DNA of 64,000 bases from Escherichia coli (GTDB lineage: Bacteria; Pseudomonadota; Gammaproteobacteria; Enterobacterales; Enterobacteriaceae), in NCBI RefSeq assembly GCF_030013205.1, contig NZ_CP122648.1; one strand, 5' to 3'. The first letter of the stretch is position 1; each line of letters begins with the position of its first letter. Made by a program: the position numbers. Shown one piece after another: positions 29,179 to 32,100 of this stretch.

Positions 29179-32100
29179 TGATGAGGGACGTATTTGTATT
29201 AGTCGCGACTTGATCTGACACATGGCCTTGAAAGGTTGAGAGTTACCGGTTTTGATATGAGTGTCGAATCCTTATCCAAAACAAGAGGTAACTCTCATGC
29301 TTCATACTGCCAATCCCGTCATCAAACACAAAGCCGGTTTGCTCAATCTGGCTGAAGAACTCAGCAACGTATCAAAAGCCTGTAAAATCATGGGCGTTTC
29401 GCGTGAAACGTTTTATCGTTACCGCGAACTGGCCGCTGAAGGCGGTGTGGATGCGCAGATTAATCGTAGTCGCCGCGCTCCTAACCTTAAGAACCGTACC
29501 GATGAGGCAACTGAACAGGCTGTTGTTGATTACACCGTCGCTTTCCCGACACATGGTCAGCACCGGGCCAGCAACGAGCTGCGTAAACAGGGGGTTTTTA
29601 TCTCCGACAGTGGTGTCCGTTCTGTCTGGTTACTCCATAACCTTGAGAATCTCAAAAGACGATACTGAACAAATTTTATCAGGTGACGTTCCGTAAAAAG
29701 TTGTATGGAGTTCTCGATGCAGTCGGCGCGACTATCAGTACCCCCGCTGAACCCTGGACTATCGGGCCGCCGTACTGGAGCATGTCACCCTGGCGTGCCG
29801 CTGGTTTTCCGCTAATGGTTTATTTCCTCTTTCTTTCCCGGCGAGAATTTATTTTAATCCGGAAGGATTATTTATTTTCAGATAGGGACTCACATTAAAC
29901 ACGAAACATTTTAATTAATGCATGGCTGAATATGTATTACACAATGTCAGATATCGTAAAAGACCAGTGCAATTCTATGTAAACTCTCTGACTGTTCATT
30001 TTATTTGTTGTTTCAGGGTCGGAACTCACCCTCAATAAACAACTGAATACGAGTAGATATTCATCGTCTGAGCTATATGGCTTTACACAATAGCCGACAT
30101 GTCTTTTCTCAGTCAGGGATTTTACTTTTCCTCACTACGAAGTTGACGACTTCGATATGGGATAGACTCTTAATTCAAGCAATTACTCTGCACAAGCATC
30201 AGGCAATCCAGCTCCAATATTTGTTATAAAATAATGCGTAACATTAATTTCACCAACAAAAAAAAGGTTTACGCTATCCCCTTGCCCTGGTATTTTACCA
30301 TATTTACACCACACTTTTTTTGTATCTGGATCATTCTCTGATACGATTTTCGCCACTTGTTCCCTGGCCCTCACCGTCAATGTTTTCTTAAACCTCCCCC
30401 CATCATCGATTGTTAGGGAAAAATAAGAAAAAAAATAATCATCTTCTACATTTGTGGATATTGATATATCCACCGCTACATGCGAAAAAAAATCTGGGAG
30501 CCATGTAAAAACCCCATCACTTTCTGGTATTGCCATATAGTTTATGTAATGCTTACTTACAAGAGATTCATCTTTGTGTAAATAAAGATAAGTAGTCACG
30601 CATAAAAAAACAACGATTATAATAGCAAAAATAAATATTACCATCTTTGAGATGTTACTTGAGATAGCCAGCATCTTGTAAAGCCTTTATCGTTTTTTTA
30701 TGCTCTGGATTAATATAATCAATACATCTATTTGAGCAATCTTGTGTTAATGGACATGTCAACCCATGTTCATTAACAGCCAAGTCTTTTTTATTATCTT
30801 CAATCATCTCAGAATGGGATAACTTTACTTTTCTGCCGTACATACCGAACATATTTAACCCGTAATCTCTAATCTCTTTTTCATAACCCAGCCCTTTCGC
30901 TGATCGGCTAACACCAGCGTCATTTAATTTAGACACTCGACAAAATGCCATACAATGGAAAAATTGATCAGTCCCACCTAAATTTAATCTCTTCATATCA
31001 TCATAAGTATCAGATAATATATCCCATGCTCTTTGATGGTTTAGTTGTTCTTTTTTTCGCATTAACGCTACATCTGCAGGACTTAACCCTAATGGATCAA
31101 TACCATTCACCGGATTCAGCGGATACGCATACAGACTCCATCCCCCCGCCAGCCCAATCGGGTCCTGAGTAATATATCGTCCCAGCAACGGATTGTAGTA
31201 CCGGTTCCGGTTATAATACAGCCCTGACTCCTCATCGTGTTGCTGCCCTGGCAGACGGTACGGCTGGTGCAGGTGATGCGGGTTTTCCTCATTCAGCAGG
31301 TTTCCCCACTCATCATACTCCCCGCTCCACGCCGTATTGCCGTCTTCGCTGATGAGCGCCAGCGGCAGCCCCCGGTGGTCACAGTGATAAAGATGAATTT
31401 TTCGCTCAGGTAAATAAACCGGCTCTATCTGTGCCGCCAGCCGCTCCACCGTCAGCCCGCACTGTGCCAGCCACTGGCGGCTTTCACTGCTCACGCGGTC
31501 TGCCCGGATTTCCCCCTCCAGCCTGTCCAGCAGCCGCACCAGTTCAGCCGGGAACACCACGCCGTGTCCGTCCTCGCTCCCTTCCTGCTGGAGCTTCTCC
31601 GCCAGGCTCCGCCGCTGCGTTTTCTCCCGCTCGCCGTTGTCTGTTTCGATGCGGATGAGCGGTGTGAAGCTTCCCGGCTCGTATACCGTCTGGATACGTG
31701 TGCTGTCGGTCTGCACCGTCGTCAGGTGGTCGCCGTCCCAGCCGTACCACGTCACCTCCGGTTTACGCGACAGCGACATCCACCCCGTCAGGTCACGCTC
31801 CCGCCGCCATACCCGTTTCGCCATTCGCCGTCCCAGCGGGTCGTAAAGGTAGCGGCTCTCGACCAGTGGCTCGCCATGCTGTATCCGCGTATAGAACACC
31901 AGGCGGTGCTGGCTGTCGTAGTGGTAGTGGTGGGTCCGCTCGTCGTCCGTCCGTATCACACCCGCCGGGATGCGGTCCGTCTTCTCCGTCAGTCTGCCGT
32001 ATTCATCATAGTGGTAAACATAGTGCGCATCCTTCGCGATGCGGTTATCCGGCCACGCCGTGAGTGTACTGTCCGGGTGCAGCTCCGGGTCCGGCAGCCG

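What the first reader, a model, noticed from the sequence alone, without database searches (positions are those of the whole stretch)
29297..29816. Rearrangement scars downstream of the Rhs element: Rhs 5' remnant with mutated start next to an IS481-like transposase fragment
A ~85-bp segment about 80% identical to the first codons of the Rhs gene (ATG changed to ATT; an internal ATG leaves a 34-codon ORF) lies 0.85 kb downstream of the immunity gene, in the same orientation as rhsD. Next to it is a truncated transposase HTH gene. Orphan Rhs pieces are usually 3' core-plus-tip modules, so a 5' start fragment is unusual. It implies a past duplication or deletion event involving the Rhs start region, possibly IS-mediated. 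A short independent ORF or regulatory role for this conserved start region cannot be excluded.
Basis: seen in the sequence. Interest (0 to 1): 0.45.

Follow-up and report, generated by a model that had tools for sequence, protein, structure and literature searches.

The report
Known Rhs-start and IS481 pseudogene scars
This is the annotated E. coli pseudogene pair ylbI/ylbG: the first 32 codons of a lost second Rhs toxin gene, joined to a broken IS481 insertion sequence at the edge of the RhsD island. It is an ordinary deletion scar.

Summary
Window 29722-29816 (minus strand) is 95 nt homologous to Rhs codons 1-32: 74/95 identical to the resident rhs start, with ATT replacing ATG. It abuts an IS481-family fragment. 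Both are already annotated in E. coli K-12 as pseudogene ylbI (b4632) and ylbG (b0502). The stretch is 99.3% identical to K-12 and occurs in about 2,750 of 5,426 complete E. coli genomes.

New detail:
- **IS481 copy.** It starts with its left inverted repeat at 29195, 13 nt after the selU stop. It has an internal deletion of about 463 bp, then 69 nt of transposase codons 277-299. It joins Rhs nt 95 at 29721/29722.
- **Origin of the remnant.** It is not a copy of the resident start. Divergence is mostly synonymous (pS 0.66, pN 0.07). Its leader and AT-rich upstream region match another E. coli contig, where the same module has an ATG and continues for 1.2 kb of Rhs, downstream of an Rhs-tip/immunity pair.

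Best reading: the relic of a second, tandem Rhs gene of another lineage, removed by a deletion ending inside IS481. Compared with K-12, this strain lacks about 944 bp (rhsD tip and ybbC), so its main rhs carries the ylbH tip and an intact ybbD.

Already known; low interest.

The parts
29189..35279 (.). Extent of the RhsD island relative to island-free E. coli (selU and ybbP adjacent)
   Evidence: Homology to the empty sites of LF82 and AMA1167 ends at 29183-29188 and resumes at 35280.
29195..29661 (+). IS481-family element, left part: left inverted repeat (TGTATTAGTCGCGACTTGATCTGACA), 5' UTR and transposase codons 1 to about 121
   Evidence: 95.3% identical over 468 nt to a complete 1.2-kb IS481-family element on an E. 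albertii plasmid (L005 2397-2864). The element's ends were defined by its inverted repeats.
29297..29668 (+). ylbG ORF (123 aa): N-terminal HTH part of the IS481 transposase, ending out of frame just after the internal deletion
   Evidence: Maps to K-12 ylbG b0502. HTH_29 E 3.6e-19; transpos_IS481 positions 2-112 of 284.
29653..29721 (+). IS481 internal fragment (transposase codons 277-299, rve_3 region), left after an internal deletion of about 463 bp at an imperfect CA(A/T)AAAAC short repeat
   Evidence: 81% identical over 69 nt to L005 3328-3396 (E 1e-13). It translates to QKTILNKFYQVTFRKKLYGVLD, against HKTILNEFYQVTFRKKLYGDLD in the intact transposase.
29722..29816 (-). Rhs 5' remnant (K-12 ylbI, b4632): codons 1-32 of an Rhs core protein, with ATT in place of ATG
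   Evidence: PGAP annotates the same 96 bp in the identical strain as an incomplete protein that is missing its C-terminus.
29679..29783 (-). 34-codon ORF from the internal ATG. The first 21 codons are Rhs-derived; the last 13 codons and the stop are antisense IS481 sequence. Judged a by-product of the junction.
   Evidence: Codon 2 of this ORF (codon 13 of the remnant) is Leu in this strain and Pro in K-12, FT130 and L019.
29817..30047 (-). Leader with a Shine-Dalgarno sequence (AAGAGGAAATAAACC before the start), plus the AT-rich spacer that belongs with the lost Rhs gene
   Evidence: Aligns continuously with L017, where it precedes an ATG-initiated Rhs gene. The leader is nearly identical from about -45 to -1. 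Positions 29865-30047 are 85% identical to a segment of the rhsE locus in L007.
30183..30674 (-). Putative immunity gene: the intact counterpart of the K-12 ybbD pseudogene (163 aa)
   Evidence: NCBIfam PRK14710.1-3 matched end to end, 369.8 bits against a cutoff of 326. Collinear with K-12 ybbD.
30655..34857 (-). Main rhs gene (1400 aa): an RhsD-type core carrying the tip that is the orphan ylbH in K-12
   Evidence: Pfam RHS_repeat, DUF6531 and RHS. Window 31112-31363 matches both the 3' end of the K-12 rhsD core and ylbH; about 944 bp of K-12 (rhsD tip plus ybbC) are absent.

Best explanation
The stretch is a non-functional deletion scar at the selU-proximal edge of the RhsD island.

Inferred history:
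1. The island once carried a second Rhs gene. It belonged to a different sequence lineage from the resident rhsD-type gene. It lay in tandem downstream of the first toxin-tip/immunity pair and was read towards selU.
2. An IS481-family element sat next to selU.
3. An illegitimate deletion joined position ~999 of the IS (inside the transposase gene) to nucleotide 95 of the second Rhs gene. It removed the right end of the IS and all but the first 32 codons of the Rhs gene.
4. A separate ~463-bp internal deletion in the IS left the 123-codon ylbG ORF.
5. The Rhs start later decayed (ATG to ATT, plus a few amino-acid changes).

The result is the pseudogene pair annotated in K-12 as ylbI and ylbG.

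Shown here: the extents of homology, both junctions, the distinct lineage of the remnant, a homologous upstream module with an ATG start elsewhere, the island boundaries, and the prevalence.

Inferred: that a full-length second Rhs gene once existed at this site, and the order of events.
For: - Identity with K-12: ylbI and ylbG map exactly onto 29721-29816 and 29297-29668, and the stretch 29182-30182 is 99.3% identical to K-12.
- The Rhs homology (nt 1-95) ends exactly where homology to IS481 positions 931-999 begins. The two run in convergent orientation, as expected for one deletion between a downstream IS and the 5' end of a gene read towards it.
- The IS copy keeps its left inverted repeat, 13 nt after the selU stop and at the island boundary. 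It lacks its middle and its right end.
- Remnant against resident start: pS 0.66, pN 0.07. Intact lineages compared with each other give pS about 0.45 and pN 0-0.04. Most of the divergence therefore accumulated under purifying selection in a separate functional gene.
- The leader and AT-rich spacer match L017. There the module sits downstream of an Rhs-tip/immunity pair, has an ATG, and continues for 1.2 kb of Rhs. Remnant nt 49-95 match L017 at 43/47, against 33-36/47 for other lineages.
- Tandem rhs genes and rhs relics are documented in Enterobacteriaceae (PMC2935791).
Against: - No genome was found with an intact second Rhs gene between ybbD and selU. None appeared among 5,426 complete E. 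coli genomes, in one genome per species of GTDB, or in metagenome contigs.
- The L017 gene is a mosaic: it becomes RhsD/E-like (about 94%) after roughly nt 85. It is also truncated and sits on an unlocalized 3-kb contig.
- The second IS fragment is only 81% identical to the reference IS, against 95% for the first. The two pieces could derive from different IS copies.
- The remnant plus IS piece could have arrived already truncated.
Confidence: 0.8

Rival explanations
1. The remnant is a local duplicate of the resident rhs start region, made by a duplication or an IS-mediated rearrangement within the island. It then decayed neutrally to about 78% identity.
For: It has the same orientation as the resident gene and lies in the same island. 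The protein-level similarity is high, 28 of 32 residues.
Against: - Neutral decay to 22% divergence should give mostly non-synonymous changes and indels. Observed values are pS 0.66 against pN 0.07, with no indels.
- The 70 nt upstream are unrelated to the resident rhs upstream region (22/70) but match the L017 leader.
- The remnant is closer to other lineages (79/95 to the E94 Rhs; 43/47 to L017 over nt 49-95) than to the resident gene.
Confidence: 0.04
2. The IS481 fragment and Rhs start were acquired together, already truncated. They would be a piece of foreign DNA (for example from a plasmid or another Rhs locus) recombined into the end of the island, so no second Rhs gene was ever intact at this site.
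For: - Related IS481 copies (92-97% DNA identity) lie on E. coli and E. albertii plasmids and in pathogenicity-island contexts.
- The AT-rich spacer and leader module also occurs at the rhsE locus.
- No intact version was found at this site.
Against: - None of the plasmid or other chromosomal IS481 copies inspected carries the Rhs junction. Their homology to the window stops at 29661.
- The IS left end coincides with the island boundary next to selU, which fits an in-situ insertion.
- The AT-rich spacer is contiguous with ybbD, as it is with the immunity gene in L017. A tandem gene in place is therefore the more economical explanation.
Confidence: 0.12
3. The conserved start region is kept because it functions. 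Either it encodes a small protein (45 codons from ATT, or 34 from the internal ATG), or it is a transcribed regulatory or antisense element acting on ylbG or the IS481 remnant.
For: - A good Shine-Dalgarno sequence (AAGAGGA) lies 8 nt before the ATT.
- An in vitro genomic SELEX screen lists an RpoD promoter site between ybbD and ylbI (PMC3946193).
- The region is about 99% conserved across roughly 2,750 genomes.
Against: - The conservation is no higher than in the flanking pseudogene and intergenic DNA (whole 1-kb stretch 99.0-99.6%), so it reflects recent common ancestry rather than selection.
- ATT is a very poor initiator (general knowledge).
- There is a non-synonymous Leu/Pro polymorphism at codon 13.
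- The C-terminal 13 codons are accidental antisense IS sequence.
- Whole-island deletions occur naturally (LF3-1), and about half of E. coli genomes lack the locus.
- The consensus promoter scan found nothing, and no Rfam family covers the remnant.
Confidence: 0.04

Closest known systems
E. coli K-12 pseudogene ylbI (b4632) and ylbG (b0502), between ybbD and selU
   Same: Same genes at the same position. K-12 coordinates 529497-529592 and 529645-530016 map onto window 29721-29816 and 29297-29668. The stretch 29182-30182 is 99.3% identical to K-12.
   Different: One non-synonymous difference in the remnant (codon 13 is Leu here, Pro in K-12). Upstream, this strain lacks the K-12 rhsD tip and ybbC, and its ybbD is intact.
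Orphan Rhs toxin-tip/immunity modules (the C-terminal displacement model, PMC2935791)
   Same: It lies downstream of a full-length rhs gene in the same orientation and is a by-product of Rhs locus rearrangement.
   Different: Orphans are 3' core fragments with a tip and an immunity gene, and they can be re-activated by recombination. This is a 95-nt 5' end with no core repeat, no tip and no immunity gene, so it cannot serve as a displacement cassette.
Tandem Rhs genes and Rhs relics in Enterobacteriaceae (for example clade II and III genes in tandem at Salmonella SPI-6, PMC2935791); contig L017 of E. coli 2020CK-00188
   Same: In L017 the same AT-rich spacer and leader follow an Rhs-tip/immunity pair and lead into a second Rhs gene with an ATG start.
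   Different: In the window only 32 codons remain and the start codon is mutated. The L017 gene is itself frameshifted, truncated after 1.2 kb by a transposase gene, and mosaic.
IS481-family insertion sequences (complete 1.2-kb copy on E. albertii plasmid pEA13_3, L005)
   Same: The left inverted repeat, 5' UTR and first ~121 transposase codons are 95% identical. A second piece corresponds to codons 277-299.
   Different: About 463 bp of the middle, the last ~200 bp and the right inverted repeat are missing. The DDE catalytic domain is absent, so the copy cannot transpose.

Membership tests
Rhs core protein (NCBIfam RHS_core / Pfam RHS_repeat, RHS) | Conserved PAAR-like N-terminus ([26 protein letters not shown]...) | tested here: met
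   RHS_core positions 1-33, E 3.2e-12. 28/32 residues identical to the resident Rhs. Pfam PAAR_motif scores 20.1 bits, below the cutoff of 27.
Rhs core protein (NCBIfam RHS_core / Pfam RHS_repeat, RHS) | YD/RHS repeats, the RHS core domain with its cleavage motif, and a C-terminal toxin tip in one ORF with a valid start | tested here: not met
   Homology stops after nt 95. The start codon is ATT and the downstream sequence is IS481-derived. It is a gene fragment, not a member protein.
Orphan Rhs-CT/immunity module | 3' core fragment plus variable tip plus cognate immunity gene | tested here: not met
   The fragment is the 5' end, and no tip or immunity ORF follows it.
IS481 family insertion sequence | Transposase with an N-terminal HTH matching the IS481 model | tested here: met
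   transpos_IS481 positions 2-112 of 284, E 6e-25; HTH_29 E 3.6e-19. The full-length relative in L005 scores 293 bits against a cutoff of 224.
IS481 family insertion sequence | DDE (rve) catalytic domain present | tested here: not met
   Only 22 residues of the rve_3 region remain, out of frame with ylbG.
IS481 family insertion sequence | Two terminal inverted repeats | tested here: not met
   The left repeat is present at 29195. The right repeat of the reference element (ends at L005 ~3598) has no counterpart in 29100-30700.
K-12 ylbI/ylbG locus (orthology) | Same flanking genes (ybbD side and selU side) and near-identical sequence | tested here: met
   Collinear 97-99% alignment from allS to ylbH.
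Translated small ORF / leader peptide | Canonical start, coding-type conservation, evidence of expression | tested here: inconclusive
   Start is ATT, or an internal ATG without a clear Shine-Dalgarno sequence. There is a Leu/Pro polymorphism. Conservation equals that of the flanks. Expression cannot be tested with these tools; there is only an in vitro RpoD binding site upstream.

The most novel reading that the evidence does not exclude
The AT-rich spacer, leader and Rhs-start module lies downstream of immunity genes at both the rhsD and rhsE loci. It might not be debris but a maintained unit. For example, it could be a promoter-and-RBS landing pad that lets a downstream Rhs cassette be rebuilt by recombination with another Rhs core. 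Alternatively, it could drive a transcript or micro-ORF that reads antisense into the IS481 remnant.
Probability: 0.03. Interest if true: 0.35.

Novelty: already known. Interest (0 to 1): 0.1.

Why it matters
It matters little beyond annotation hygiene. The analysis explains two K-12 y-genes:
- ylbI is the start of a lost second Rhs gene.
- ylbG is the HTH stub of an internally deleted IS481 copy, not a dedicated transcriptional regulator.

It fixes the junctions to the base and shows that the RhsD island once probably carried two tandem Rhs genes of different lineages. It also shows that the K-12 orphan ylbH/ybbD pair is the active tip and intact immunity gene of the main rhs in this strain. 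That illustrates tip switching by recombination within a 252-bp core repeat.

Tried and rejected
1. **Wrong frame in early calls.** Searches used window:29298-29668, one base off the ylbG frame (the ATG is at 29297). The Pfam and NCBIfam 'no hit' results for that protein are therefore void and were repeated. The wrong-frame tblastn served only to locate a full-length IS (L005). Its relationship to the window was then shown at DNA level and in the correct frame.
2. **A hidden right inverted repeat.** I suspected that 29720-29745 hid the IS481 right inverted repeat. The inverted-repeat search and alignment to a complete IS did not support this; the resemblance is chance.
3. **Chimeric query.** I joined the spacer, the remnant and 350 nt of another Rhs to fish for genomes with an intact second Rhs at this site. 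It found only an internal-deletion variant (FT130) and the 3-kb contig L017.
4. **Genome-contig scan with the leader pattern.** The single hit was the same E. coli locus on a contig binned as 'Alistipes'.
5. **Two metagenome-contig scans.** One used the ATG version of the leader and one a lineage-specific 26-mer. Neither found a match.
6. **Hit H30.** A 36-nt match inside a prophage, unrelated.
7. **Rfam and promoter/terminator scans over the remnant.** Nothing relevant was found on the remnant itself.
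Full report
**Where the window is.** It is E. coli chromosome, 100% identical to strain CFSAN018748 over the stretch tested. It runs in the reverse orientation to K-12 MG1655 coordinates. The local gene order on the plus strand is:
- allS (27092-28018, +)
- selU/mnmH (28087-29181, +)
- ylbG (29297-29668, +)
- ylbI (29721-29816, -)
- a ybbD-like ORF (30183-30674, -)
- a 1400-aa rhs gene (30655-34857, -)
- ybbP (35286-37700, -)

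**Checking the observation.**
- Window 29722-29816 (minus strand) aligns with the first 95 nt of the resident rhs gene at 78-79% identity. blastn E is 1e-16 to 2e-17 and the direct count is 74/95.
- Identity falls to background immediately after nt 95 (3/25). It is weak upstream of the start (8/20 for -20 to -1; 11/40 further up).
- The translated remnant, [32 protein letters not shown], matches NCBIfam RHS_core positions 1-33 (E 3.2e-12).
- The start codon is ATT. The internal ATG gives the 34-codon ORF 29679-29783.
- The neighbouring ORF 29297-29668 is the N-terminal third of an IS481-family transposase: HTH_29 E 3.6e-19, and transpos_IS481 positions 2-112 of 284.
- My first family searches of this ORF were one base out of frame, and their negative results should be ignored.
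The homologous stretch is 95 nt rather than about 85. It lies 366 bp from the immunity ORF and 0.84 kb from the rhs stop.

**It is already annotated.**
- In NC_000913.3 the pseudogene ylbI (b4632, 529497-529592) and ylbG (b0502, 529645-530016) map exactly onto window 29721-29816 and 29297-29668.
- PGAP annotates the same 96 bp in CFSAN018748 as an incomplete protein missing its C-terminus.
- The 1-kb stretch 29182-30182 is 99.3% identical to K-12. At least 80% of it is present in 2,726 of 5,426 complete E. coli genomes. The sub-stretch 29700-30182 is present in 2,751.

**Anatomy of the IS fragment.** The reference is a complete 1.2-kb IS481-family element on an E. albertii plasmid (L005 2398 to ~3598). 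It is bounded by inverted repeats TGTATTAGTCGCGACTTGATCTGACA / TGTCAGATCAGGTCTGAGCTAATACA, and its transposase scores 293 bits on the IS481 model. Compared with it:
- Window 29195-29661 corresponds to IS positions 1-467, at 95% identity.
- Window 29653-29721 corresponds to IS positions 931-999, at 81% identity (E 1e-13). It translates to QKTILNKFYQVTFRKKLYGVLD, against HKTILNEFYQVTFRKKLYGDLD at transposase residues 277-299.
- The copy therefore has an internal deletion of about 463 bp at an imperfect short repeat, CA(A/T)AAAAC. This shifts the frame and ends ylbG at 29668.
- The copy lacks its last ~200 bp, including the right inverted repeat.
- IS-derived sequence ends at 29721 and Rhs-derived sequence begins at 29722. 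The junction joins the inside of the transposase gene to Rhs nucleotide 95, with the two genes convergent.
- The last 13 codons of the 34-codon ORF are simply the antisense of this transposase fragment.

**Island boundaries.**
- Island-free strains have selU and ybbP adjacent. LF82 has a 240-bp REP-rich spacer between them. AMA1167 has a 711-bp spacer that PGAP annotates with a dinQ-like toxin gene.
- Homology of the window to these empty sites ends at 29183-29188 and resumes at 35280.
- The island is therefore about 29189-35279. The IS481 left inverted repeat (29195) lies at its selU edge.

**Origin of the remnant.** It is not a decayed copy of the resident start.
- Over codons 2-32, remnant against resident gives pS 0.66 and pN 0.07. 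Comparisons among intact Rhs lineages give pS about 0.45 and pN 0-0.04. Most of the divergence is therefore synonymous and arose in a functional gene of another lineage.
- Over the 95 nt the remnant is closer to a third-lineage E. coli Rhs (strain E94, 79/95) than to the resident gene (74/95) or to rhsA/B/C (70-73/95).
- The decisive evidence is contig L017, a 3-kb unlocalized contig of strain 2020CK-00188. Its order is: Rhs tip end, a 453-bp putative immunity gene, an AT-rich spacer, a leader, then an ATG-initiated Rhs gene of 1.2 kb. That gene is frameshifted and truncated, and is followed by a transposase gene.
- The window's 29817-30047 aligns continuously with the L017 spacer and leader, nearly identical from about -45 to -1, Shine-Dalgarno sequence included.
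- Remnant nt 49-95 match L017 at 43/47, against 33-36/47 for other lineages. This includes the lineage-specific Leu27 codon.
- The AT-rich part (29865-30047) also occurs at the rhsE locus of strain ampC_0069, at 85% identity, again just after an immunity-like gene.
- The unit of spacer, leader and Rhs start is therefore the upstream end of a second Rhs gene that sits in tandem behind a tip/immunity pair.

**Most likely history.**
1. The RhsD island carried a second tandem Rhs gene read towards selU.
2. An IS481 copy lay beside selU.
3. A deletion from inside the IS to Rhs nt 95 removed the rest of the gene.
4. The start codon then mutated.

What is shown: the homology limits, both junctions and the lineage of the remnant. 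What is inferred: the former existence of a full gene at this site, and the order of events. I found no genome with an intact second gene here, whether in complete E. coli genomes, species-representative genomes or metagenome contigs. An already truncated import therefore remains possible (about 0.12).

- The remnant region itself is collinear with K-12.
- Window 31112-38000 matches K-12 rhsD through ybbA. Window 27313-31363 matches K-12 allS through ylbH.
- The two alignments overlap by 252 bp (31112-31363). This overlap is the core segment repeated in K-12 at the end of the rhsD core and at the start of ylbH.
- This strain therefore lacks about 944 bp of K-12, namely the rhsD tip plus ybbC. 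Its main rhs carries the tip that is an orphan (ylbH) in K-12.
- The ORF that follows is an intact 163-aa counterpart of the K-12 ybbD pseudogene (end-to-end NCBIfam match).
- The data do not show whether K-12 gained the 944 bp or this strain lost it.

Three others appeared in this small survey:
- 18 nt of an Rhs start cut by an ISAs1 element after vgrG in ampC_0069.
- An 852-bp rhsD 5' piece left by an internal island deletion in FT130.
- The 1.2-kb piece in L017.

Jackson et al. describe widespread rhs relics and tandem rhs genes, although their downstream fragments are C-terminal (PMC2935791).

**Is it functional?**
- The remnant keeps a good Shine-Dalgarno sequence.
- An in vitro SELEX screen lists an RpoD promoter site between ybbD and ylbI (PMC3946193).
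- Against function: the ATT start, the Leu/Pro polymorphism at codon 13, the accidental IS-antisense C-terminus, and conservation no better than the flanks. Natural loss of the island and the absence of any Rfam or consensus promoter signal on the remnant point the same way.
- I put this reading at about 0.04.

**Verdict.** The feature is already known as ylbI/ylbG and interest is low.

Noticed in passing
window 29123-29294 (minus strand): A sub-threshold Rfam hit to psRNA2 (RF02349): 31.1 bits against a gathering score of 65, E 5e-06, covering the full model length. It lies antisense to the IS481 left inverted repeat and 5' UTR, including the hairpin 29232-29247 / 29287-29302. It suggests that the Rfam family may correspond to the antisense of IS481-type left ends, possibly an antisense regulator of the transposase.
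   Followed up: partly
window 30183-34857 (minus strand); K-12 locus L001 8008-8951: The main rhs of this strain carries the toxin tip that is the orphan ylbH in K-12, followed by an intact 163-aa ybbD (a pseudogene in K-12). About 944 bp of K-12 (rhsD tip plus ybbC) are absent. The two states differ by recombination within a 252-bp repeated core segment (31112-31363).
   Followed up: partly
window 30183-30674 (minus strand); L002 9239-9494: For the identical strain, PGAP annotates only a 256-bp 'frameshifted, incomplete hypothetical protein' here. The window nevertheless has an uninterrupted 163-codon ORF that matches NCBIfam PRK14710.1-3 end to end, above its cutoff. This is probably an annotation artefact.
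   Followed up: partly
L011 9711-9794 (E. coli AMA1167, island-free selU-ybbP spacer): Some island-free strains carry a 711-bp spacer with a gene that PGAP annotates as a dinQ-like type I toxin, flanked by repeated hairpin-like sequences. LF82 has only a 240-bp REP-rich spacer. The selU-ybbP interval is therefore a recurrent insertion site.
   Followed up: no
L007 2834-2851 and 5001-5340 (E. coli ampC_0069, rhsE locus): After vgrG, the Rhs start is cut after 18 nt by an ISEc1 (ISAs1-family) end. A second ISAs1 copy follows the AT-rich spacer. This looks like loss of the whole rhsE core by recombination between two ISAs1 copies.
   Followed up: partly
L017 1492-2681 (E. coli 2020CK-00188, 3-kb contig): This Rhs 5' piece is a mosaic. 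Its leader and first ~85 nt are of the ylbI lineage, with an unusual DATAKGG in place of DMTQYGG at residues 11-17. The rest is about 94% RhsD/E-like with an internal deletion. This indicates recombination between Rhs lineages close to the start.
   Followed up: partly
L019 (CASFSC010000074.1, 3995 bp): A contig assigned to an 'uncultured Alistipes sp.' genome bin is 96.6% identical to this E. coli selU-ylbG-ylbI-ybbD-ylbH region. It is almost certainly a binning error in the public MAG.
   Followed up: yes
L006 9500-10197 (E. coli LF3-1) and L016 9001-10265 (E. coli FT130): Two natural deletion variants of the island. In LF3-1 an IS1 replaces everything between ylbG and ybbP. FT130 retains 852 bp of the rhsD 5' end fused about 0.3 kb upstream of ylbI, so it has two Rhs 5' relics in tandem.
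   Followed up: partly
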